A stretch of 64,000 nt of DNA from a virus (taxonomy: Duplodnaviria > Caudoviricetes). The notes under the pieces are model-generated. The model did not search any database. It was not told the origin of the DNA and worked only from the letters and a program-made list of their open reading frames with translations. Below, piece after piece: positions 19,847 through 63,890 of this stretch; positions within the stretch are counted from its first letter, which is position 1, and the number at the start of each line of letters is the position of its first letter. Where the stretch lies: IMG/VR virus record IMGVR_UViG_3300013121_000029, positions 1 through 64,000 of that record; one strand, given 5' to 3'. The position numbers and the translations under genes are program-made.

Positions 19847-20035
19847 ATGAGCAATTTGTCGAAACACGATAGAGAGTTAGGAGTTCAAGCAGCAGCAAAA
19901 ATATTTAAAGGAACAGGAATAGGGGCAGCTTTGTTTACACGAAATGCAGATGCTATTGCACAATATTTAGCAACTGGGGAACTACCACCTGCCCCTACTA
20001 ACCGAAAACCTGTTGTCGATGAAGACAAGAAATAA
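19847..20035 (+). CDS. hypothetical protein (62 aa)
   Basis: GAGGTG RBS. Confidence 0.6.
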   Translation: MSNLSKHDRELGVQAAAKIFKGTGIGAALFTRNADAIAQYLATGELPPAPTNRKPVVDEDKK

Positions 20036-20044
20036 TAAATAAAG

Positions 20045-20368
20045 AATCAGATGAAGGCAAGACGAAAGTAGGCAAGACGCGAGTTCGAACCTCGCCATCT
20101 CCACCAAGGGATTTTCGTAAAGCCACAGGAACTCAGGACGGACATATATCTATCCTAAACATTATGTAAGAATGTTGAGCTGTGGGGGAAAGTCTTTTAT
20201 GGGGATGAATTGGAATCGATTGGTTACGAGTACTTTAGCTGGATGATCGGTTGGGAACCTTCCGTAATAGAACAAAAACTGTAAATGACGCAAATGAAGC
20301 GTTTAGTCTAGCTGCCTAAAAGGTAAGCATGAGTTTTATTGGTTGAGCTCGGAAACAGAATCAACCAA
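20045..20368 (+). ncRNA. ssrA: circularly permuted (two-piece) tmRNA
   Basis: Acceptor piece ends GACGCGAGTTCGAACCTCGCCATCTCCACCA (20106); coding piece starts GGGGATG (20201), giving a 7-bp acceptor stem with G3:U70; tag ORF 20287-20319 DANEAFSLAA*; outer ends approximate. Confidence 0.92.
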
Positions 20369-20875
20369 TGCTTTTTCAATATATATCCAATATTTTGTAC
20401 CATCGGGTCTGGATCTTTTTCTTCGACGTTTGGCTTTTTCTGATATTTTCTGTCGTACTTCTTCCCGATTCATAACATTGTTGCACCCTGTCCTATTAGG
20501 AAACTTTTTTCCTTTAGTGTTTCCAGGTTTTCCTTTTCTTGCGTTTGAAATTTTTTGACGTTGCTCTATGGACATAGGTTTTCCCTTATTTAAAGCTGTA
20601 AACCCTTTTTTTCGGCCCATTTTTGTATTATAATACCGTGTTCGAAATTCTGTTGGTTTAATTAATGCAATTAATCTTCGTTCTTCACGTATAGCATCTT
20701 GTTTTGTATCATATATTCTTAATATACGTCGTTTAAAATCTTGTGGTCTAAACAACACTTCCCCTGTAAACCACCGTGAAGATGAAATATAACCATCAGA
20801 AAGTTGTCCACTATGAGAACCAATGTAAAACATTTTTCTTACACGATCGAACCAAATATACACGAAATGAATCAT
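20336..20875 (-). CDS. GIY-YIG homing endonuclease (Seg-like, NUMOD3-type tail)
   Basis: FVYIW...FYIGSH.G...DGY..S, E..LI, YYN, GKPMS.EQRQKIS; GGAG before ATG 20875. Confidence 0.85.
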   Translation of the reverse strand: MIHFVYIWFDRVRKMFYIGSHSGQLSDGYISSSRWFTGEVLFRPQDFKRRILRIYDTKQDAIREERRLIALIKPTEFRTRYYNTKMGRKKGFTALNKGKPMSIEQRQKISNARKGKPGNTKGKKFPNRTGCNNVMNREEVRQKISEKAKRRRKRSRPDGTKYWIYIEKALVDSVSELNQ

Positions 20876-55054: not shown

Positions 55055-57102
55055 GTCATGTAAGTTACGTTATCAGCACGTGAAGTATTAAGTTGTCTCA
55101 AAAATGCTTCATATGTTTCTTTACTATCAAGAATTAAGAAGGCACCACGATTGCGTAATAAGGTAACAATATTTCTAAAATTATCCCCGTGTAATATATC
55201 ACTATCAGATGCAACAATAATATTATACTTGTCAGTAATAGCTTCTTGTGCAATTCCTAATTCTGCAGTTGTGAAAGCAGTACCACCATTTTGCGTCATA
55301 TTAATTACTTGTGATAATTTATGAGTCCAGGTTGAAGGTGAATCTTTAACAGAGTTAACAGGAGCAGCTATATCCCCCTCAACTTGTGCTTTAAATAAGG
55401 AATACCCATCACTGAATCTCATAATAGCAAATTGTGTTTTACGGAAAGCTGTCTTACTAGCAAGTTCAAGAACGCTCTTGTTGATAGAACCAATAATAGG
55501 AGACATTGATCCTGACGAGTCTAATATAAACAATAGTTTAGCTGTAGTCTCGACTCCAATTTCGCCAGGAGAAACGGAACCAGATCCTGTTTGTTTAACC
55601 TGCAAGGCAGTTCTTCCGGCACTTCTTGTATTCATTCTTTGATATGTTTCTTCAGTTTCTTGAGCAGCATTTAGCACTAATTGACGAATGATTTCCTTCC
55701 AAGAAATTCGTGGAGGTTGTGGAGTTACAGCAGTAATTTTTCCAGCACCGCTTCCAGGTTGTCCTGTGGATTTAGATTTAGCAGGAGGTTGATCTTTTAC
55801 ATCATCCTTACGTTCCTCTTTAACCTGTTCAGCAATTTTCTTACTTACTTCATCCACCACTTGGTTAATATTTTGACCAGGTTTAGTATGAATATCAATT
55901 GATTGCTGTCCTTTTTCAGGTGGATTAGTGTCATCAATATTAACATTAGTTTCCTCACCTTCTTCGTTACCAGGATCATGATCGTCCGTTTGACGATCTA
56001 ACCAATCTTCAATATCGCTACCATTTTCCCCATCACCTGGATCACCACCTTCGCCATCTTTACTTTCATCATCTTTACTTTCTTTTAATTTTTGTAATTC
56101 TTCTTTAACAATTTTGTACATCAATTCATAACTGTCTTGACGGTCATAGTTAATTTCGTCACAAAATAATCCCATAGGAAGCGGAGAGAATCCGCTTTTT
56201 GCTAGTAAGTAGTTAGAACGGAAGTCACCAACATAGTTAATAATTTTAGGATTTGCTTTTCCACCATTATCTGGATCTTTAATGATTTTTTGATAATAAA
56301 AATCACTATGTGTAAAATGCATGTATTCATGTAGAATTAAAAACTCAATATAAGCATACTCTGGTGGGAATTTACCACCATTGTTTGTATATTTTAATCC
56401 TTGTGGTTGAAGTTTAATTATATGAGCATAATCCATTAATTTTTGCATAAACAAAATATTAAAGATAAATGTACCACTTGGAGTAGCAGCTGCAGTATCG
56501 ATAGAAGCCCATCTATCTTCTTTTGTAGATTGTTTATTCTTTTTTCTCTCTAATCTTTCTTCTTTTTCTTTTTGTAATTGTTCGGCTTTTTTAGGATCAA
56601 TAAGATCGTTGCCGTGTCCAGGATGAACTCTTGTGAACACAAAGTCTTCATTTTTTAATGGTTTACGTTCAAGATAACTAACAAGTGGAAAGAATTCAGG
56701 CATCTCAGACTTAAGTTTATTGAGTAACCTTTCAAATATAACTTTTGAAAATTTTGGACCCCCGACGTCAACATCTACGTTACAAAATAAATCAAATAAT
56801 GTACTTTCGATAAAATTGTTCTTCATTGTCGAAAATAATAATGGAGCTAATTTTTCTTTTCCGTTTAAATTTGCGACTTTTTCGTTTATTAAATCAACAA
56901 CAACTGCTGGTGCCACATTTGCAGCCTTTGCGACGATTTTAATGACATCTTGAATATGAGGATCATTTAACGATGAAGCACGGAATTTCACTGTTCCGCG
57001 TTTGGCTTTTGTTATATCCATAGAAGCCTCACGAATAATCTTCGGAGGCATATCAAGTGATACCTTTTGTGTCATTCTATCTCTTAAGGATAACAATTTC
57101 AT
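55051..57102 (-). CDS. HEXXH metallopeptidase-like + VWA domain protein (DUF2201-like)
   Basis: IDTAAAT, ILHEYMH, N..GD...N, acidic/Gly linker, ISW...L, LDSSGSM MIDAS, GGT, SD.D. Confidence 0.85.
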   Translation of the reverse strand: MKLLSLRDRMTQKVSLDMPPKIIREASMDITKAKRGTVKFRASSLNDPHIQDVIKIVAKAANVAPAVVVDLINEKVANLNGKEKLAPLLFSTMKNNFIESTLFDLFCNVDVDVGGPKFSKVIFERLLNKLKSEMPEFFPLVSYLERKPLKNEDFVFTRVHPGHGNDLIDPKKAEQLQKEKEERLERKKNKQSTKEDRWASIDTAAATPSGTFIFNILFMQKLMDYAHIIKLQPQGLKYTNNGGKFPPEYAYIEFLILHEYMHFTHSDFYYQKIIKDPDNGGKANPKIINYVGDFRSNYLLAKSGFSPLPMGLFCDEINYDRQDSYELMYKIVKEELQKLKESKDDESKDGEGGDPGDGENGSDIEDWLDRQTDDHDPGNEEGEETNVNIDDTNPPEKGQQSIDIHTKPGQNINQVVDEVSKKIAEQVKEERKDDVKDQPPAKSKSTGQPGSGAGKITAVTPQPPRISWKEIIRQLVLNAAQETEETYQRMNTRSAGRTALQVKQTGSGSVSPGEIGVETTAKLLFILDSSGSMSPIIGSINKSVLELASKTAFRKTQFAIMRFSDGYSLFKAQVEGDIAAPVNSVKDSPSTWTHKLSQVINMTQNGGTAFTTAELGIAQEAITDKYNIIVASDSDILHGDNFRNIVTLLRNRGAFLILDSKETYEAFLRQLNTSRADNVTYMT

Positions 57103-59705
57103 TATGCTGTGGCCTCTTGTACAACAGTATTAGCAACATCATCTTGTTCAACGAACGCACTTACTACATCGAATAAAATATCTGGTTCAAGTTTGTCCTT
57201 AATTTCATTTTTCTTAATTCTGCAACTGGACACTTGATTTACACGATCGTTTGATACTTCATGCATAATCAAGGTGGTACGTAATACGATGAGGAAGTTT
57301 GCAAGGAAGCTGACTTGTAATGAATCATCTTGTGCAAATGTACCTTGTTCAATGTTAGGACGTAATACTGGATGAGATTGATCTAACAAATATTGCTGAG
57401 CACGTTTATCATTTTCAGTCATATATAAAGCCACGTTCTTCATTGCTGAATCGAATTCAGGATGTGATACGCTCTTATTTGCATTTATTAATTCTTCATC
57501 TTCAGGCATATCTTTCAATGGTTTCTTCAAAGACAAATAGTCTTGTAATACATCATCTAAACTCTTACGTAATGTAGGACGTTTGACGAATAAATTACCG
57601 AACACACTTACATCTAAGTTATCAAACCACTCACGTAATACATTATAAATGTTTTGATAATCTAAAGCACCATGCTTATATTGGAAAGAGTTTGTAGTTG
57701 CTTCTTCAAATGCTTCAGCCATTGTCTGTGTAACATATTCTTTTGACTTAATTTTATCTTCAAACACTTCAGGATTTCTTTTTAATTTATCTAAAATAGT
57801 ATCAACAGAATCGACCATGTGCTTATATAATGATTCATATTCACGTGGAGAGAAGTAAAATTCACTTGATCCGACATGTAAGTTAAATGGTTTCTTAGAT
57901 TCAGGAACACCTGGAGTCTTTGATTTAAATTGTGAAACAAATGTTTCTATTACAGCTTGAACTGCATCTTTAGCATCAGGTGAGGCGTCCACATCTAAAT
58001 TTTTAATGTAATTCCAAGTCGAGTTCCAATTACCATATGCTGGAATAATATCAACCACGTCTCTAAAATGTTCTGTTAATTGTGAAGTGGCGCCACCAAT
58101 AGGGTTAATTGCACCAACAACGATTGATCCGTCAGGAATTTTGATGAGATTTCCTTTTTCATCAGGACCAAAATTTTTCTCAAGCATAATTCTACGTAAA
58201 GCATTAAACACTTTAGTTGATTGTACGCGATTGATTTCGTCGAAGAAAATTAAATATTTCCATTCTTTATTAGGAAATTCTTTAATTAATTGTTCAGCTT
58301 TTTTCGGATCATCCTTGTATTGCTCACGCCAATAATCAAATAACACTTTCTCAGCACTTTTCTTTTGTGTCATAATACGTTGATAAAGTTCTGGTTCAGA
58401 GAAGTGTACTTTACGATTGCCTTCTTGATCTTCTTGTGCCAATGGAATACCAATAACGGATTCAGGATTTAATACTGTCGCTTCGATAGGAATATATGCT
58501 AATCCTAAATCGTGAGCAATTTTTAAAGAATTAGTTGTTTTTCCGATTCCCGGAGGACCAGACACGATAGGAATATATTTTCTATACTCTCCTAATTTCA
58601 TTTGAGCTCTAACAAGAGAGAATAGTGTATCTCTCCAACTTGTATCATCTAATGTTTGATGTTCGTCAACGGACATTTTTGACGTAGCTTTCATTGCGTC
58701 AATTGTTAATTTCATTACTTTTGAACTCAATTCACCAAAATGTTTATCGATATAATGATAGAAATTATGTTTTACGTTTGTAAGTAATTGTTTTGCTTCT
58801 GCTTCATTTTCGACAGGTAAGGAGGCACAAATATACAACATCAATTGTTCCCATCTACGAGGAGAAATTCTGACTCCACGATCAGTATAATTTATATCAT
58901 CATCTGTAAGATGTTCACGGAAGATTTTAATTACATCAGGGTTAATATCTACACGAGGATTTTTTTCGTGTTTAGATTCAAACCAATCAAACCATTCTTC
59001 TTTTGTTGGAGCTTCATGTTTAAGAATTAACCAATCTTCATTTGACAGTACTGGTTCAACAGCACCATGAGTAATGTCGCTCATATTTGAAGCATAGATG
59101 ATATACACACTATCAGGTACTTTATCCATACCGATATTACGGTTTAGCAATCCACGTAAGATGTTTCTTGTTCTTGTAGAAGATTGTCTATAGTATTCAT
59201 CTAAAAATAGAATGCAATTATAACGATCACGTGCCTTCTGAATAGTTGGTGGAATAGTTTTTTCGTCACCACCCATTCTCATAAACAATTGTTGAATGTG
59301 GCTCGGAGCGTCAGCAATTTCTTTCAAATAATCTGAATCACTTATTTTTTTAACTGCTTTAATTTTAGTTAATAAATTAGATTCTGCTAATTGGATTTGA
59401 TATTGTGTTCCTTTCGATGCTTGATCTTTCATGTCTTCTAAATCAACAGATACAGAATCGCCAGTTGATTTATTTGTGACCGGATCGAACGTGATAAAAG
59501 GAATATTAATCAAATGTTCTTCAATAATATGTGGAATCTCAATTACAATTGTTTTAATACCAGTTAATTTAGACAATAATTCAATACTACTAGTCTTTCC
59601 TATACCAGGATCACCAGTTAACAATGCTCCTGCTGGAGTTGTTGAATTCATGTTTTTAATAATCTTAGTTAATTGTTTTTCTATTTTTGTGCCCATTAAA
59701 TTCAT
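57102..59705 (-). CDS. tandem AAA+ ATPase (MoxR/dynein-related)
   Basis: Two Walker A (GDPGIGKT, GPPGIGKT), two Walker B (LFLDEYYR, IFFDEINR), two SPR sensor motifs. Confidence 0.9.
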   Translation of the reverse strand: MNLMGTKIEKQLTKIIKNMNSTTPAGALLTGDPGIGKTSSIELLSKLTGIKTIVIEIPHIIEEHLINIPFITFDPVTNKSTGDSVSVDLEDMKDQASKGTQYQIQLAESNLLTKIKAVKKISDSDYLKEIADAPSHIQQLFMRMGGDEKTIPPTIQKARDRYNCILFLDEYYRQSSTRTRNILRGLLNRNIGMDKVPDSVYIIYASNMSDITHGAVEPVLSNEDWLILKHEAPTKEEWFDWFESKHEKNPRVDINPDVIKIFREHLTDDDINYTDRGVRISPRRWEQLMLYICASLPVENEAEAKQLLTNVKHNFYHYIDKHFGELSSKVMKLTIDAMKATSKMSVDEHQTLDDTSWRDTLFSLVRAQMKLGEYRKYIPIVSGPPGIGKTTNSLKIAHDLGLAYIPIEATVLNPESVIGIPLAQEDQEGNRKVHFSEPELYQRIMTQKKSAEKVLFDYWREQYKDDPKKAEQLIKEFPNKEWKYLIFFDEINRVQSTKVFNALRRIMLEKNFGPDEKGNLIKIPDGSIVVGAINPIGGATSQLTEHFRDVVDIIPAYGNWNSTWNYIKNLDVDASPDAKDAVQAVIETFVSQFKSKTPGVPESKKPFNLHVGSSEFYFSPREYESLYKHMVDSVDTILDKLKRNPEVFEDKIKSKEYVTQTMAEAFEEATTNSFQYKHGALDYQNIYNVLREWFDNLDVSVFGNLFVKRPTLRKSLDDVLQDYLSLKKPLKDMPEDEELINANKSVSHPEFDSAMKNVALYMTENDKRAQQYLLDQSHPVLRPNIEQGTFAQDDSLQVSFLANFLIVLRTTLIMHEVSNDRVNQVSSCRIKKNEIKDKLEPDILFDVVSAFVEQDDVANTVVQEATA

Positions 59706-60843: not shown

Positions 60844-61890
60844 TTATTCCTCATCAGAATCGTTTTGATTAAATCCTTGACGAATACCTTTAAGGCCCTT
60901 GTAAGGTACAGATAAAGTCTTCACCACACTTGTCTTATTTCTCATTGCTGGAATAAAATCAAATGCTCTTTCAGAGAAACCTGCTAATTGATACCAACCA
61001 TCAATTTCGCTTACAGGAGTGGAAGCATATGCATTCAAGTTAAATGCTACTTTAACAACATTTGATCCGAAAATCTTTGTTGCTTCACGTTTTGAACTTA
61101 ACTGATTCACCTGCATATCACTAAACAGGATCACAGTATCAGGTTCAAATCCTAATGCTGGTTTAAGATCTAAAGCAGCCTGTAAGTTTGTTCCACCACC
61201 ATATGAACGTGCTTCAATGGCTTCTACGTTAGCAAACATATTTGCCTTTGGATCGACGTTGATGTGTTCAGCACTGTTACTGAAAATCGTAACTTTCACA
61301 TTAGTTGCGTTTTTATTTGCACCAACTAATGCTGCAGAGAAAAGCGCTCCAGTTTGAAGTGGAGTACCTTCCATACTTCCTGATACATCAAGAATAATCC
61401 AAATATTGTTACCAATAGAAGGAATGTTAGTTAAACTTGTGTTACATGCATCACGAACAGCAGCACGTAATCTATCTTTATTAACATTCTTACCTTGTGC
61501 TCCATCGATTGCTGTTAAAGCATTAACGAAACGGAAAGGAAGTTGTTTTGACTTTTTAATTTGGTCTTCATCAACTAACTTACCCATTACCTGCTTGATA
61601 ACAGTATCAGGTACGTTTGCTTCAATGATGTTTCGGAGATTGCGAAGAAGTGCCATATATTGTACACTGTTAGATTCGATCAAATCAGTCCAAACTTCAG
61701 CATTTGTTTTGCGCTCGTTTGCTGGTAATTGACCATTAGCACTCAACACAGTTTCCCATGTTTTTGGGGTTGCTAATTCGTCTTTTATCAATTTAGCAAA
61801 GATTTCACCTTGTTCTGGTGTTTTACCTACAGGGTGAACAATGCGTAATACGTCACGAAGTTTAACTTGTTTTTTGCTGTGCTTTGCCAT
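60844..61890 (-). CDS. Ro60/TROVE protein, C-terminal fragment (TROVE end + VWA)
   Basis: VKLRDVL..VHP, TWET.LS, YMALLRNLRNI, QLPFRF, LDVSGSM, GGT, FSDMQ; AGGAG before ATG 61890. Confidence 0.9.
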   Translation of the reverse strand: MAKHSKKQVKLRDVLRIVHPVGKTPEQGEIFAKLIKDELATPKTWETVLSANGQLPANERKTNAEVWTDLIESNSVQYMALLRNLRNIIEANVPDTVIKQVMGKLVDEDQIKKSKQLPFRFVNALTAIDGAQGKNVNKDRLRAAVRDACNTSLTNIPSIGNNIWIILDVSGSMEGTPLQTGALFSAALVGANKNATNVKVTIFSNSAEHINVDPKANMFANVEAIEARSYGGGTNLQAALDLKPALGFEPDTVILFSDMQVNQLSSKREATKIFGSNVVKVAFNLNAYASTPVSEIDGWYQLAGFSERAFDFIPAMRNKTSVVKTLSVPYKGLKGIRQGFNQNDSDEE

Positions 61891-62476
61891 TTTCTTTCTC
61901 CTGTTTGTGTAGTAATTTATGACATTGTTTACATAATGTAAGTCCATTGTCAATATTAAATCTTTCATCCATATTTGTAGAGAACGGTTTAATGTGGTGA
62001 GCTTCTAGTTCACAATGTGTGATTCCGCACATCCTACAATAATATTGATCGCGTTGGAAAACTAATGTTCTCCAGGTTTTATATTGGTCTGATTGTCTAA
62101 GTAAAATGTTTTCATTACTTAATCCACCTTTCCAATTCCAATGAAGTTCTTTACTCTTTCCTGTATTTTTTAATCGATCATCCGTTCGTTTAGTTAATCC
62201 TTTATTCCAACTTGATTTGCCTTTTCGTGAAATAGAAAGCTTTTGCTTAGTTTCTTCTGAAACAGTTTTTCCTACCCATTTATGCCTATGAAGTCGGGCC
62301 CATGTATTTGCTCTTCCTTTTAAGGAATCTGATACTGTTCGTCTCGGAATTCCATATCGCTTCATCCAATTTAACACTGTTGCTCCTGAGCAATTAAATT
62401 TATCTGCAATTTGTTGTAGTGATAATTTTTGGTTGATGTATAACTCAATTAATAATTCTTGTTCGATTTTTTTCAT
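61862..62476 (-). CDS. HNH homing endonuclease (HTH + NUMOD3 + HNH) inserted in the Ro60 gene
   Basis: LSLQQIA HTH, SEETKQKLS, WNKG, HWNWKGG, RD.Y.C..CG...AHHIKP....NG.TLC..CH. Confidence 0.9.
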   Translation of the reverse strand: MKKIEQELLIELYINQKLSLQQIADKFNCSGATVLNWMKRYGIPRRTVSDSLKGRANTWARLHRHKWVGKTVSEETKQKLSISRKGKSSWNKGLTKRTDDRLKNTGKSKELHWNWKGGLSNENILLRQSDQYKTWRTLVFQRDQYYCRMCGITHCELEAHHIKPFSTNMDERFNIDNGLTLCKQCHKLLHKQEKENGKAQQKTS

Positions 62477-62506
62477 TTTAAATACTTCTAATATTAGAAG
62501 TATTTA

Positions 62507-63121
62507 TTAATTCCATTTAGCAAGAGAGTACTCATTGAATTTTTCGAAAGCATCTGCAACCCCACGACGAATTGCCATAGGTACAGCATTCTTTCCACCA
62601 AAAACAGATAATGCATATGCATATAAATCAGTGATTTGGTCAGCACGTTGAATTACGTCGCAAACAACACGACGCATATCATTATAGGTAAACTGTTCAG
62701 CTTTTGATTGAAAAGTTGCTATTTTAATATTTTCAGCATCGGTTAACTCACGACCATTTGCACTTTGTTTAATAGTAGTAATTTGATCAAGGAACAATTT
62801 ACGATTATCAGAAAGGGCCTTTGCAAATTCAACACAAAGAATGATAGGCATGGTACGAATGTTCATATTCGTACGTGCGTGAACGATTAAATTTGCTAAG
62901 AAGTCGAAATTTTTATTGGCAACAACAGAAGACAAAAGTTCACGCAAACGACGTAAACGATCGTTTGAACTTTCATAGAATTCATCTTTACCGTACAAAG
63001 TCATTGTAACAACTTCGTACAATTGTTGTTCAGCATTTTTAAGGAATTGTGGATTACCGTTGTAAGAATAAGCAACCTTATTCTGTTTTGCGGATTTGTT
63101 TGGCTTATTTAATTTAGACAT
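62507..63121 (-). CDS. Ro60/TROVE protein, N-terminal fragment
   Basis: FYES, AR...N.RT.P, IQRADQ, RRGVADAF.KFNEY.LAKWN; GAGGAG RBS. Confidence 0.88.
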   Translation of the reverse strand: MSKLNKPNKSAKQNKVAYSYNGNPQFLKNAEQQLYEVVTMTLYGKDEFYESSNDRLRRLRELLSSVVANKNFDFLANLIVHARTNMNIRTMPIILCVEFAKALSDNRKLFLDQITTIKQSANGRELTDAENIKIATFQSKAEQFTYNDMRRVVCDVIQRADQITDLYAYALSVFGGKNAVPMAIRRGVADAFEKFNEYSLAKWN

Positions 63122-63151: not shown

Positions 63152-63180
63152 ATTATACTGTGTTAATTTTAGAAAGTCAA
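63152..63180 (-). promoter_or_regulatory. sigma70-type promoter for Ro60
   Basis: TTGACT-N17-TATAAT on -. Confidence 0.75.
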
Positions 63181-63210
63181 GGATGTTACGAATACCATTA
63201 GAAATATTTT

Positions 63211-63339
63211 AAAGAGACAAGGGCTAAAAGAGAGATTTTCGTGCTCTACCAACTGAGCTATATCTCCAGATGGAGATAGCAGGACTCGAACCTACGGCCA
63301 CGTCATTAACAGTGAAGTAACTCTTTTATACGCAACTTT
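63211..63339 (-). ncRNA. YrlA-like Y RNA with permuted tRNA-like domain
   Basis: GTTGCGTA-TAAAAGAG-TTACTTC, CTGTTAA, T arm GTAGG-TTCGAGT-CCTGC, capped acceptor stem TATCTCC-ATCT-GGAGATA, TA, D arm GCTC-AGTTGGTA-GAGC, CTCTTTTA...CTTGTC; adjacent to Ro60. Confidence 0.9.
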
Positions 63340-63350
63340 AAAAAACTTTA

Positions 63351-63415
63351 TGATGAGTCAAAGTTAGAAAGAGTGTGTTTCACCAAAAGAAGTAACTCTT
63401 TCCTACGCAACATCA
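63351..63415 (-). ncRNA. minimal Y-RNA-like element
   Basis: TGATG-TTGCGTAG-GAAAGAGT-TACTTC...GTG-AAA-CAC-ACTCTTTC-TAACTTTGACT-CATCA. Confidence 0.8.
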
Positions 63416-63434
63416 AAAACTTTTACAAAAATTC

Positions 63435-63520
63435 AGGTGAGTTAAAGTCGTACAGAGGATATTGGCCCGAGGCCAGTCTTTGTTAAGGAAAAGAAGTATC
63501 TCTGTTACTACGCAACACCT
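63435..63520 (-). ncRNA. Y-RNA-like element with GC hairpin insert
   Basis: AGGTG-TTGCGTAG-TAACAGAG-ATACTTC...TGGCC-TCG-GGCCA...CTCTGTA-CGACTTTAACT-CACCT; TAAATA at ~63528-63533 just upstream. Confidence 0.8.
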
Positions 63521-63547
63521 AAAAACCTATTTATGATACGAAATTTC

Positions 63548-63832
63548 AGTCGAGTTCAATTTTGAATTGAGCAGTCACCGGACAGGAGGTTATTAGTCCT
63601 GTTATACGGCCAACATTTACTCTCAAATGTTTTAAGATGAGTGTTTCTGACACCAGCCAACTTAACGTAATTGATACGAATGTTTTAAAGATCTTTTCAA
63701 TTAATAGTTAATTTCATTTGTGATATTTCTAAACATTAACTCTATATCACACAATAAAACTATTTGGTCTTACCTATTAATCGTCCGATCCAGCCGTTTT
63801 AATATGAAGTATCTCACTTCAACGCAACGACT
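63548..63832 (-). ncRNA. long (~285 nt) Y-RNA-like element with multi-hairpin insert
   Basis: AGTCG-TTGCG-TTGAAGTGAG-ATACTTC ... CTCAATTCAA-AATTGAACT-CGACT; several internal inverted repeats; no long ORF. Confidence 0.7.
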
Positions 63833-63861
63833 TCATTTCGAATTCATTAATTTATATATCT

Positions 63862-63890
63862 ATTATATATGAGAGTTTATTAAAATTCAA
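63862..63890 (-). promoter_or_regulatory. sigma70-type promoter for the ncRNA array
   Basis: TTGAAT-N17-TATAAT on -. Confidence 0.7.

What the first reader, a model, noticed from the sequence alone, without database searches (positions are those of the whole stretch)
63207..63890. Array of four modular Y-RNA-like ncRNAs upstream of a phage Ro60: one shared stem, four different payloads
Seen: on the minus strand, four consecutive units (63548-63832, 63435-63520, 63351-63415, 63211-63339). Each has a terminal helix, GTTGCG, a purine-rich helix ending GAG, W-TACTTC, a variable insert, the complementary CTC strand and a TTGTC/TTGAC/TTAAC/TTGAAC motif. The helices differ in sequence but stay complementary in every copy (AGTCG/CGACT, AGGTG/CACCT, TGATG/CATCA, AAAG/CTTT; TAAAAGAG/CTCTTTTA, GAAAGAG/CTCTTTC, ACAGAG/CTCTGT, TTGAAGTGAG/CTCAATTCAA), so structure rather than sequence is conserved. 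A sigma70 promoter heads the array and a TAAATA late motif precedes unit 3. Established: bacterial Ro60 (Rsr) binds adjacent-encoded Y RNAs, whose second module tethers effector proteins (e.g. PNPase in Deinococcus); Ro/Y pairs are known in a few phages. Inference: one phage Ro60 loads a repertoire of interchangeable RNA adaptors or decoys (about 285, 85, 65 and 130 nt), possibly under separate early and late control.
Basis: partly seen in the sequence, partly recalled or inferred. Interest (0 to 1): 0.9.

Follow-up and report, generated by a model that had tools for sequence, protein, structure and literature searches.

The report
Four-unit Y RNA array beside phage Ro60
An uncultured large phage from activated sludge carries four small RNA genes in a row just upstream of its Ro60 gene; all four share a docking stem of the kind Ro60 binds in other systems, but each carries a different outer module, and similar arrays turn out to be common next to Ro60 in related phages.

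Summary
On the minus strand, four tandem units (63832-63548, 63520-63435, 63415-63351, 63340-63210) share one scaffold: helix P1, GUUGCGUAG loop, helix P2 ending GAG, WUACUUC, a variable insert, CUC strand, UUGAC-type motif, P1'. Unit 4 carries the YrlA tRNA-like core (Rfam RF02553, 37.2 bits, E 2.4e-6, below the gathering score). A covariance model built from units 2 and 3 plus relatives found unit 4, which was not in the seed. In 80 phage Ro60 loci chosen by protein alone it gave 72 hits, all on the Ro60 strand and mostly abutting the gene. Ten loci had 3-5 units. About 95% of cells were paired and all 13 pairs covaried.

The hairpin and minimal inserts of units 2 and 3 recur in distant phages. 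The 234-nt insert of unit 1 has no relative, although its closing stem is non-random (1 of 5000 shuffles).

This is a Y RNA array of a known kind: YrlA/YrlB, and phage phiLo Yrl1/Yrl2. It is larger and more modular than described cases. Ro60 binding, separate transcripts and adaptor or decoy function are untested, and the proposed late promoter is unsupported. The Ro60 gene itself is split in two by an HNH endonuclease gene.

The parts
63862..63890 (-). Sigma70-like promoter heading the array (TTGAAT, 17 nt, TATAAT)
   Evidence: 10 of 12 matches. Relatives also have a -10/-35-like pair just upstream of their arrays. Consensus match only; not significant by count in this A+T-rich stretch.
63548..63832 (-). 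Unit 1: Y-type stem (AGUCG-UUGCGU-UGAAGUGAG-AUACUUC ... CUCAAUUCAA-AAUUGAAC-UCGACU) enclosing a 234-nt multi-hairpin insert
   Evidence: Sequence. Closure is 14 of 15 Watson-Crick pairs, reached by 1 of 5000 shuffles. Fold -63.7 kcal/mol, z -2.1. The insert has no relative in about 190 fetched loci or elsewhere in the genome, and no Rfam match.
63435..63520 (-). Unit 2: Y-type stem plus a G+C-rich hairpin (UGGCC-UCG-GGCCA)
   Evidence: Model R1 69.7 bits (seed member). Fold z -2.35. The same hairpin class, with compensatory changes (UGCCC/GGGCA, UGGGC/GCCCA), occurs in 8 units from 6 contigs.
63351..63415 (-). Unit 3: minimal Y-type hairpin. The stem closes a roughly 22-nt loop, pyrimidine-rich then A-rich.
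   Evidence: R1 72.8 bits (seed member). Fold. Equivalent minimal units occur in L009, L033, L036, L038, L050 and L082.
63210..63340 (-). Unit 4: Y-type stem enclosing a tRNA-like module. In order: anticodon-like arm (loop CUGUUAA), T arm, 7-bp acceptor-like stem closed by AUCU, D arm.
   Evidence: Rfam YrlA RF02553 at 63240-63302: 37.2 bits, E 2.4e-6, gathering score 69. R1 48.5 bits though not in the seed. When the two halves are put in tRNA order, ARAGORN draws a tRNA-Asn(GUU) cloverleaf.
63152..63180 (-). Sigma70-like promoter (TTGACT, 17 nt, TATAAT) between the array and Ro60
   Evidence: 11 of 12 matches. Consensus match only.
62507..63121 (-). Ro60 N-terminal piece (204 aa)
   Evidence: Best solved-structure match is Thermus phage phiLo Ro60 (9KOP), residues 23-125, E 3.6e-4. 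It is homologous to the N-terminal parts of contiguous Ro60 genes in 76 of 80 related loci.
61862..62476 (-). HNH/NUMOD3 homing-endonuclease gene inserted in Ro60
   Evidence: Pfam HNH_2 4.7e-9, HNH 1.5e-6, NUMOD3 5.2e-6. It is 38% identical to the ORF at the same site in L009. The same arrangement is seen in L118, L140 and L141.
60844..61890 (-). Ro60 C-terminal piece (348 aa): rest of the TROVE domain plus a vWA domain
   Evidence: Pfam TROVE 7.4e-21, VWA_2 2.1e-7. Matches phiLo Ro60 residues 169-481.

Best explanation
The stretch encodes four Y RNAs of the bacterial and phage YrlA/YrlB kind, lying directly upstream of the phage's Ro60 gene on the same strand.

Shown:
- All four share one closing scaffold: helix P1, an internal loop with 5' GUUGCGUAG and 3' UUGAC-UC, helix P2, then a near-invariant UACUUC.
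- This scaffold is conserved and covaries across many phages that carry Ro60.
- The distal inserts differ: a complete, circularly permuted tRNA-like cloverleaf (unit 4), a G+C hairpin (unit 2), almost nothing (unit 3), and a 234-nt multi-hairpin domain (unit 1).

Inferred:
- The array is transcribed from the upstream promoter as one precursor and cut into four RNAs.
- Each RNA docks on the two-piece Ro60 through the shared stem.
- The distal module decides what else the particle contacts, for example PNPase or tRNA-handling enzymes, or how access to the Ro60 cavity is gated. This follows the RNPs described for Deinococcus, Salmonella and Thermus phage phiLo.
For: Identity:
- Unit 4 matches the Rfam YrlA core.
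- The homologous units in L009 and L033 align to the whole YrlA model at 44.5 and 38.9 bits.
- CcrColossus is among the phages reported to have Y RNA-like RNAs and Ro60 homologs (PMC12135203, citing Chen 2014). It has a YrlA match and also a second unit with this stem 47 nt upstream of its Ro60 gene.

Stem:
- 44 units from 13 loci: 94.6% of cells paired, 187 double-change cells against 36 or fewer when partners are slid.
- 72 units from loci chosen only by Ro60 protein: 95.2% paired, all 13 pairs covary.

Link to Ro60:
- 72 of 72 hits lie on the Ro60 strand. Most abut the gene, and a few lie up to about 1.5 kb from it. 35 of 80 loci have at least one hit, and 10 have 3-5.
- Of five records where units sit in tRNA clusters, three encode TROVE, including both complete genomes. 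The other two are fragments.

Function of the inserts:
- The unit 2 and unit 3 insert classes recur in phages whose Ro60 is only about 30% identical.
[quoted passage not shown] Phage phiLo Ro60 binds two upstream Yrls and PNPase in vitro (PMC12135203).
Against: - No experimental evidence of transcripts, processing or Ro60 binding for this phage.
- All Rfam YrlA scores are below the gathering score of 69.
- The published Ro-binding motif GNCGAAN0-1G is not present as such. The loop reads GCGUAG.
- The covariation counts were made on model-fitted alignments, which lean towards the structure.
- The unit 1 insert has no homolog and lies far outside the 80-130 nt size range of characterised Y RNAs.
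- Ro60 is split into two ORFs, and whether the pieces assemble is unknown.
- 45 of 80 related Ro60 loci gave no hit with this narrow model.
Confidence: 0.85

Rival explanations
1. Only the tRNA-like unit 4 is a working Y RNA. Units 1-3 are decaying tandem duplicates that have lost or scrambled their inserts.
For: Units 2 and 3 lack any tRNA-like element and have very small inserts. The unit 1 insert has no relative.
Against: - The stems of units 1-3 are as intact as that of unit 4.
- The G+C hairpin class and the minimal class recur, with compensatory changes, in phages with about 30% Ro60 identity.
- Non-tRNA-like second Y RNAs (YrlB, Yrn2) are bound by Ro60 in all three bacteria tested (PMC4201824).
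Confidence: 0.07
2. The shared stem is not a Ro60 site. It is a processing or regulatory structure that releases or controls the enclosed RNAs or the downstream Ro60 mRNA, for example a double-strand RNase site or the site of another protein.
For: Units in several relatives sit inside tRNA gene clusters, where processing stems would make sense. The canonical GNCGAA motif is absent.
Against: - Minimal units enclose nothing to release.
- All 72 hits are on the Ro60 strand and close to it.
- There is homology to YrlA, including the 3' UUGUC motif of the Rfam consensus.
- The internal loop and UACUUC are conserved in sequence, unlike a generic duplex.
Confidence: 0.05
3. Unit 1 is a Y RNA interrupted by unrelated inserted DNA, or it brackets an independent RNA gene. 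On this view its 234-nt insert has nothing to do with Ro60.
For: - No other sampled unit exceeds 159 nt.
- No other long unit was found by a motif scan of 80 loci.
- The insert is an orphan.
- This phage has already taken a mobile endonuclease gene into Ro60 itself.
Against: - The insert is not repeated in the genome.
- It has no ORF of note, no Rfam match and no terminal repeats.
- It folds better than shuffles (z -2.1).
Confidence: 0.3

Closest known systems
YrlA and YrlB of Salmonella Typhimurium and Mycobacterium smegmatis, with Rsr (Chen et al. 2014, PMC4201824; Rfam RF02553)
   Same: - Encoded just upstream of Ro60 on the same strand.
- The 5' and 3' ends pair into a long stem with a conserved loop.
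[quoted passage not shown]
- The 3' UUGUC of the Rfam consensus is present in unit 4.
- The M. smegmatis pair is cut from one precursor.
   Different: - Four units rather than two.
- The loop reads GCGUAG instead of GNCGAAN0-1G.
- UACUUC is near-invariant here (YUAY in the paper).
- Unit 4 has a 5-bp arm with a canonical 7-nt loop (CUGUUAA) in the anticodon-arm position. The paper models that region as a variable arm.
- Scores are below the Rfam gathering score.
Thermus phage phiLo Ro60 with Yrl1 and Yrl2 (NAR 2025, PMC12135203; PDB 9KOP, 9L5Y)
   Same: - A phage Ro60 with Y-like RNAs directly upstream.
- It is the best solved-structure match for both Ro60 pieces.
- In vitro it forms a Ro60-Yrl-PNPase complex, which is the model used here.
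   Different: - Two RNAs found through a CGAA motif; four here, without CGAA.
- phiLo Ro60 is one polypeptide; this one is split by an endonuclease gene.
- Sequence similarity is weak (E 0.007 and 3.6e-4).
Deinococcus radiodurans Yrn1 and Yrn2 with Rsr and PNPase (the RYPER complex)
   Same: - Several Y RNAs upstream of Ro60.
[quoted passage not shown]
- The distal module tethers an exoribonuclease.
   Different: According to the paper, Yrn1 is arranged differently and is thought to have evolved independently of YrlA. No sequence similarity was found here.
Vertebrate Y RNA sets (two to four per species)
   Same: One Ro60 and several Y RNAs share a conserved Ro-binding stem (GGUCCGA / UUGAC) and differ in the distal loop, which recruits other proteins (own knowledge and PMC4201824).
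   Different: They are separate Pol III genes rather than a tandem array. They have no tRNA-like module and are 80-130 nt long.
Genes split by free-standing homing endonuclease genes in T4-type phages (own knowledge)
   Same: An HNH endonuclease ORF sits between two halves of a conserved gene. Each half has its own start codon, and there is no room for an intron core: 30 nt lie before the ORF, and the ORF overlaps the second half.
   Different: The target here is Ro60. I found no report of a split Ro60.

Membership tests
Bacterial/phage Y RNA (YrlA type, Rfam RF02553) | Encoded within a few kb of a Ro60 ortholog, on the same strand | tested here: met
   The array ends 89 nt upstream of the Ro60 start, on the same strand. 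72 of 72 family hits in 80 Ro60 loci are on the Ro60 strand.
Bacterial/phage Y RNA (YrlA type, Rfam RF02553) | The 5' and 3' ends pair into a long stem interrupted by a conserved loop or bulge | tested here: met
   Folds. About 95% of cells are paired, with changes on both sides at 12 of 13 and 13 of 13 pairs.
Bacterial/phage Y RNA (YrlA type, Rfam RF02553) | GNCGAAN0-1G motif near the 5' end (the proposed Ro60 contact) | tested here: not met
   All four units read UUGCGUAG or UUGCGUUG. The family consensus is G-U-N-G-Y-G-U-A-G. GCGUAG resembles GNCGAAG but is not that motif.
Bacterial/phage Y RNA (YrlA type, Rfam RF02553) | tRNA-like domain (T arm, acceptor-like stem, D arm) in at least one RNA of the locus | tested here: met
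   Unit 4: YrlA model positions 24-84 at 37.2 bits, E 2.4e-6. ARAGORN draws a cloverleaf after un-permuting.
Bacterial/phage Y RNA (YrlA type, Rfam RF02553) | Score at or above the Rfam gathering score (69 bits) | tested here: not met
   37.2 bits for unit 4. 44.5, 42.3 and 38.9 bits for L009, CcrColossus and L033.
Bacterial/phage Y RNA (YrlA type, Rfam RF02553) | Bound by Ro60 and dependent on it for accumulation | not testable with these tools
   Needs pulldown or EMSA and a Ro60 mutant.
YrlB / Yrn2-type second Y RNA | [quoted passage not shown] | tested here: met
   Unit 3: P1 and P2 close a loop that begins UUACUUCUUUU. No curated model exists for this class.
Ro60 / TROVE protein | TROVE domain followed by a vWA domain | tested here: met
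   C piece: TROVE 7.4e-21 and VWA_2 2.1e-7. N piece: phiLo Ro60 residues 23-125.
Ro60 / TROVE protein | Single polypeptide forming the ring | tested here: not met
   Two ORFs (204 and 348 aa) are separated by an HNH endonuclease ORF. 76 of 80 relatives are contiguous.
tRNA gene (for unit 4) | Contiguous cloverleaf with free acceptor ends, called by tRNA finders | tested here: not met
   ARAGORN calls no tRNA here. Rfam tRNA scores 22.2 bits against a gathering score of 29. The acceptor end is closed by a loop and the order of the halves is permuted.

The most novel reading that the evidence does not exclude
Phage Ro60 loci may work as an expandable cassette system. One Ro60-docking stem is reused as a carrier for interchangeable modules, up to five or six per phage.

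The modules include complete tRNA look-alikes. These keep a canonical anticodon loop of a specific identity: Asn GUU here, and Ser, Lys, Thr, Cys, Arg and Met/Ile types in relatives. Such RNAs could serve as decoys or sensors for host enzymes that attack or modify particular tRNAs, or as handles that bring host RNases to Ro60.

On this reading unit 1, at 285 nt, would be the largest Y RNA known and would carry an undescribed domain.
Probability: 0.2. Interest if true: 0.75.

Novelty: new variant of a known kind. Interest (0 to 1): 0.55.

Why it matters
Why bacterial and phage Y RNAs carry a tRNA-like module, and what their other Y RNAs do, is still open.

These phage arrays supply nature's own module-swap series. 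The Ro60-docking stem stays the same while four to six different modules are attached to it, and the same module classes recur in distant phages. Each module can therefore be tested separately for partners and phenotype.

Three results bear on searching and on the Ro60 contact:
- Current tools miss most of these RNAs, because Rfam scores fall below threshold.
- The published Ro-binding motif is replaced by a variant.
- A hexamer, UACUUC, is the most conserved element of the family.

Finally, Ro60 tolerates being split by a homing endonuclease at one recurrent site.

Tried and rejected
- Nucleotide search of GenBank phages with the region found no match.
- Close-relative protein scans of IMG/VR and of metagenome contigs with the two Ro60 pieces found nothing. 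An alignment-based scan later worked.
- The exact-motif scan of IMG/VR gave 82 stretches. Most were chance matches inside coding sequence, and only about 14 loci were real.
- MAFFT could not keep the 3' strands in register for units with one base fewer in the 3' loop. I seeded the model on six homogeneous units instead.
- My first shuffle test for the unit 1 closure allowed G-U pairs and did not discriminate: 511 of 3000 shuffles reached the score. I replaced it with a Watson-Crick-only test.
- Searches for relatives of the unit 1 insert found only 16-20-nt chance matches: two IMG/VR pattern scans, blastn against all loci, and blastn against the genome. A scan for other long units in 80 loci found none.
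- Public runs (contigs only): one sludge metatranscriptome holds a 235-nt contig at depth 2.3 that covers 63576-63809, inside unit 1, and nothing else of the 1.6 kb laid. A second holds only 62400-62609. DNA carry-over cannot be excluded, so I do not count this as evidence of expression. The uncovered parts say nothing.
- The three genes downstream of Ro60, including an 867-aa double AAA+ protein, have no counterpart next to Ro60 in 80 related loci. I dropped the idea of an AAA+/vWA partnership.
- A UUC/GAA mini-hairpin after UACUUC is only mildly enriched (31 of 91 units against 19 expected). I do not claim it as a family feature.
- Two review papers (PMC10870794, PMC6542706) are not held.

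Full report
**Setting.** The window is the first 64 kb of a 197.6 kb IMG/VR virus record (about 72% complete, 34% G+C). Public runs that hold it are activated-sludge and wastewater metagenomes. The finding lies at the window's right end, on the minus strand, directly upstream of a Ro60 gene.

**Observation.** Reading the minus strand gives four consecutive units: 63832-63548 (285 nt), 63520-63435 (86 nt), 63415-63351 (65 nt) and 63340-63210 (131 nt). Each has this order of elements:
- a 4-5-bp terminal helix, P1;
- G-UUGCGU(A/U)(G/U);
- a purine-rich helix P2 ending GAG;
- (A/U)UACUUC;
- a variable insert;
- the CUC strand of P2;
- a UUGAAC, UUAAC, UUGAC or UUGUC motif, then UC;
- the P1 complement.

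The helices differ between units but stay complementary. The only mismatch is one G.A in the 10-bp P2 of unit 1. The units are separated by 27, 19 and 10 nt of A+U-rich spacer.

**Is it more than chance?**
- I built a covariance model (R1) from units 2 and 3 plus four units from other phage contigs, with P1 and P2 as the only pairs.
- R1 found unit 4, which was not in the seed, at 48.5 bits (E about 1e-9). It found nothing else below E 1 in the window or in the whole 197.6 kb record.
- Unit 1 is too long for the model. In a separate test its 3' strand pairs with the 5' strand at 14 of 15 Watson-Crick positions, reached by 1 of 5000 dinucleotide shuffles of the downstream 400 nt. The UUGAAC-UC motif also sits in the expected place, and the test did not count that.

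**What the units are.**
- *Rfam.* At a relaxed threshold Rfam gives one meaningful match: YrlA (RF02553), model positions 24-84, on 63240-63302, at 37.2 bits and E 2.4e-6. This is below the gathering score of 69.
- *Unit 4.* The match is the T arm (GUAGG-UUCGAGU-CCUGC), a 7-bp acceptor-like stem closed by AUCU, and a D arm (GCUC-AGUUGGUA-GAGC).
- *Relatives.* The homologous first units of the arrays in L009 and L033 align to the whole YrlA model at 44.5 and 38.9 bits.
- *Shared motifs.* The Rfam consensus carries a 3' CUUGUC, which unit 4 has verbatim. Chen et al. 2014 (PMC4201824) describe a 5' GNCGAAN0-1G motif as the likely Ro60 contact, and a YUAY that begins the next loop. Here the loop reads GCGUAG and the second motif is (U/A)UAC.
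- *A cultured phage.* CcrColossus is listed among the phages with Y RNA-like RNAs and Ro60 homologs (PMC12135203, citing Chen 2014). It has a YrlA match plus a second unit with GGUGGCGUAG...AUACUUC 47 nt upstream of its Ro60 gene.

So this stem family belongs to the known Y RNA family rather than being a new one.

**The protein.** The C-terminal ORF (60844-61890) has TROVE (7.4e-21) and vWA domains. Its best solved-structure relative, and that of the 204-aa N-terminal ORF (62507-63121), is the Ro60 of Thermus phage phiLo. The two ORFs cover residues 23-125 and 169-481 of that protein. Between them sits an HNH/NUMOD3 endonuclease ORF (61862-62476). It starts 30 nt after the first stop codon and overlaps the second start, which leaves no room for an intron core.

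**Related loci.**
- *Motif-based sample.* A motif scan of IMG/VR plus R1 found tandem arrays on the Ro60 strand in many contigs:
  - four units directly upstream of Ro60 in L009 and in L036;
  - three in L033;
  - five in L034 and six in L035;
  - further units scattered in tRNA clusters.
- *Unbiased sample.* I then fetched loci by Ro60 protein alone. Of 340 IMG/VR stretches that encode a relative, the best 80 were kept. R1 gave 72 hits at E 0.01 or better:
  - all 72 lie on the Ro60 strand;
  - most lie within a few hundred bases upstream or downstream of the gene, and a few up to about 1.5 kb away;
  - 35 loci have at least one hit, 20 at least two, 10 at least three, and the maximum is five.
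- *Covariation.* On these 72 units, 95.2% of cells form standard pairs and all 13 pairs change on both sides. There are 287 double-change cells, against 77 or fewer when the 3' partners are slid. The earlier set of 44 units gave 94.6% and 187 against 36 or fewer. Both alignments were fitted to the model, which favours the structure, but the margin is large.
- *Family consensus*: G-U-N-G-Y-G-U-A-G in the 5' loop, G-N-U-U-K-U-N-C-U-C in the 3' loop, and UACUUC in 63-65 of 65 distinct units. UACUUC is the most conserved element.
- *Co-occurrence with Ro60.* Of five records where units sit in tRNA clusters, three encode TROVE, including both complete genomes. The other two are fragments.

**The inserts.**
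- *Unit 4.* It is more than a YrlA core. Immediately before the 5-nt variable region and the T arm lies a 5-bp arm with the loop C-U-GUU-A-A. When the two halves are written in tRNA order, ARAGORN draws a tRNA-Asn(GUU) cloverleaf. It is not a copy of the phage's own tRNA-Asn gene. Among 11 tRNA-like units of relatives that have such an arm, 8 have U at loop position 2 and A at position 6, with differing middle triplets: GCU, CUU, UGU, GCA, CAU, UCU and AAU. Chen et al. model this region as a variable arm.
- *Unit 2.* It carries a G+C hairpin (UGGCC-UCG-GGCCA). The same class occurs in 8 units from 6 contigs, with compensatory changes such as UGCCC/GGGCA and UGGGC/GCCCA.
- *Unit 3.* It is minimal, a stem closing a loop that is pyrimidine-rich then A-rich. 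[quoted passage not shown] It has counterparts in six other contigs.
- *Unit 1.* The 234-nt insert folds into several hairpins (z -2.1). It has no relative in any fetched locus and no second copy in the genome. It has no Rfam match. No other sampled unit exceeds 159 nt.

**Transcription.**
- TTGAAT-17-TATAAT lies at 63890-63862, and a better match (TTGACT-17-TATAAT) lies between unit 4 and Ro60. Relatives also show promoter-like pairs just upstream of their arrays. These are consensus matches only.
TATAAATA occurs 11 times in the record against about 56 expected from composition. TAAATA occurs 212 times against about 512 expected. Relatives do not conserve the motif.
- The spacers are short, and M. 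smegmatis and D. radiodurans both make their Y RNAs from a precursor (PMC4201824). One transcript cut into four RNAs is therefore the more likely arrangement. This is inference.

**Mechanism.**
- *Shown:* sequence family, structure, covariation, and genomic linkage to Ro60.
- *Inferred from the named literature:* each RNA docks on Ro60 through the shared stem, and the distal module sets partners or gates the Ro60 cavity. Examples are the Ro60-Y RNA-PNPase complexes of Deinococcus and Salmonella, and the in vitro phiLo complex (PMC4201824, PMC12135203).
- *Unit 4:* its 7-bp acceptor-like stem meets the determinant that Chen et al. give for RNase P cleavage of M. smegmatis YrlA, so cleavage there is a testable possibility.

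**Novelty.** Phage Ro60 genes with one or two upstream Y-like RNAs are published. In the held literature I found none of the following described:
- arrays of three to six units;
- the recurrence of distinct insert classes across phages;
- the GCGUAG/UACUUC variant of the stem;
- a canonical anticodon-like arm in YrlA-type RNAs;
- a 285-nt unit;
- a split Ro60.

I rate it a new variant of a known kind. This scan also read the same stretch in another window (e1-5749932).

Noticed in passing
window 60844-63121 (-); also L118, L140, L141 and L009:6128-8318: The Ro60 gene is split into a 204-aa and a 348-aa ORF by an HNH/NUMOD3 endonuclease gene. The same endonuclease family (38% identity) sits at the same site in at least two other phage lineages. 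76 of 80 related Ro60 genes are contiguous, and L128 has a different 1.3-kb interruption. This looks like a homing site inside Ro60.
   Followed up: partly
window 20014-20410 (+): A circularly permuted (two-piece type) tmRNA gene: Rfam tmRNA_permuted 85.2 bits against a gathering score of 47. ARAGORN calls it with tag peptide DANEAFSLAA.
   Followed up: no
L034 (five units), L035 (six units), L015, L038, L082: In several large phage contigs the Y-type units are interleaved with ordinary tRNA genes. They carry tRNA-like modules with different D arms and different anticodon-like loops, as if several distinct tRNAs were mimicked within one phage.
   Followed up: partly
L036:9301-9402 (+): One unit scores as a full tRNA in Rfam (42.3 bits, above the gathering score of 29). 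Its P2 helix takes the place of the acceptor stem and it has a UCU anticodon-like loop, so the graft point between stem and tRNA-like module differs between units.
   Followed up: no
window 57102-59705 (-): An 867-aa protein with two AAA+ modules (AAA and the AAA_5 dynein-related type) lies two genes downstream of the vWA-bearing Ro60. It has no counterpart beside Ro60 in 80 related loci.
   Followed up: partly
L088:5053-5371 (Bacteroides phage crAss001, downstream of the TROVE gene gp96): An unannotated 900-nt gap after the TROVE gene holds an R1 hit (28.1 bits) and a 144-nt stretch that Rfam scores as tRNA (46.6 bits). These are probably unannotated Y RNAs in a cultured crAss-like phage.
   Followed up: no
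window 63811-63827 (-), 5' part of unit 1: In unit 1 the 5' strand of P2 (GAAGU) can also pair locally with the conserved ACUUC, giving an alternative hairpin that competes with the long-range stem. The centroid fold shows it.
   Followed up: no
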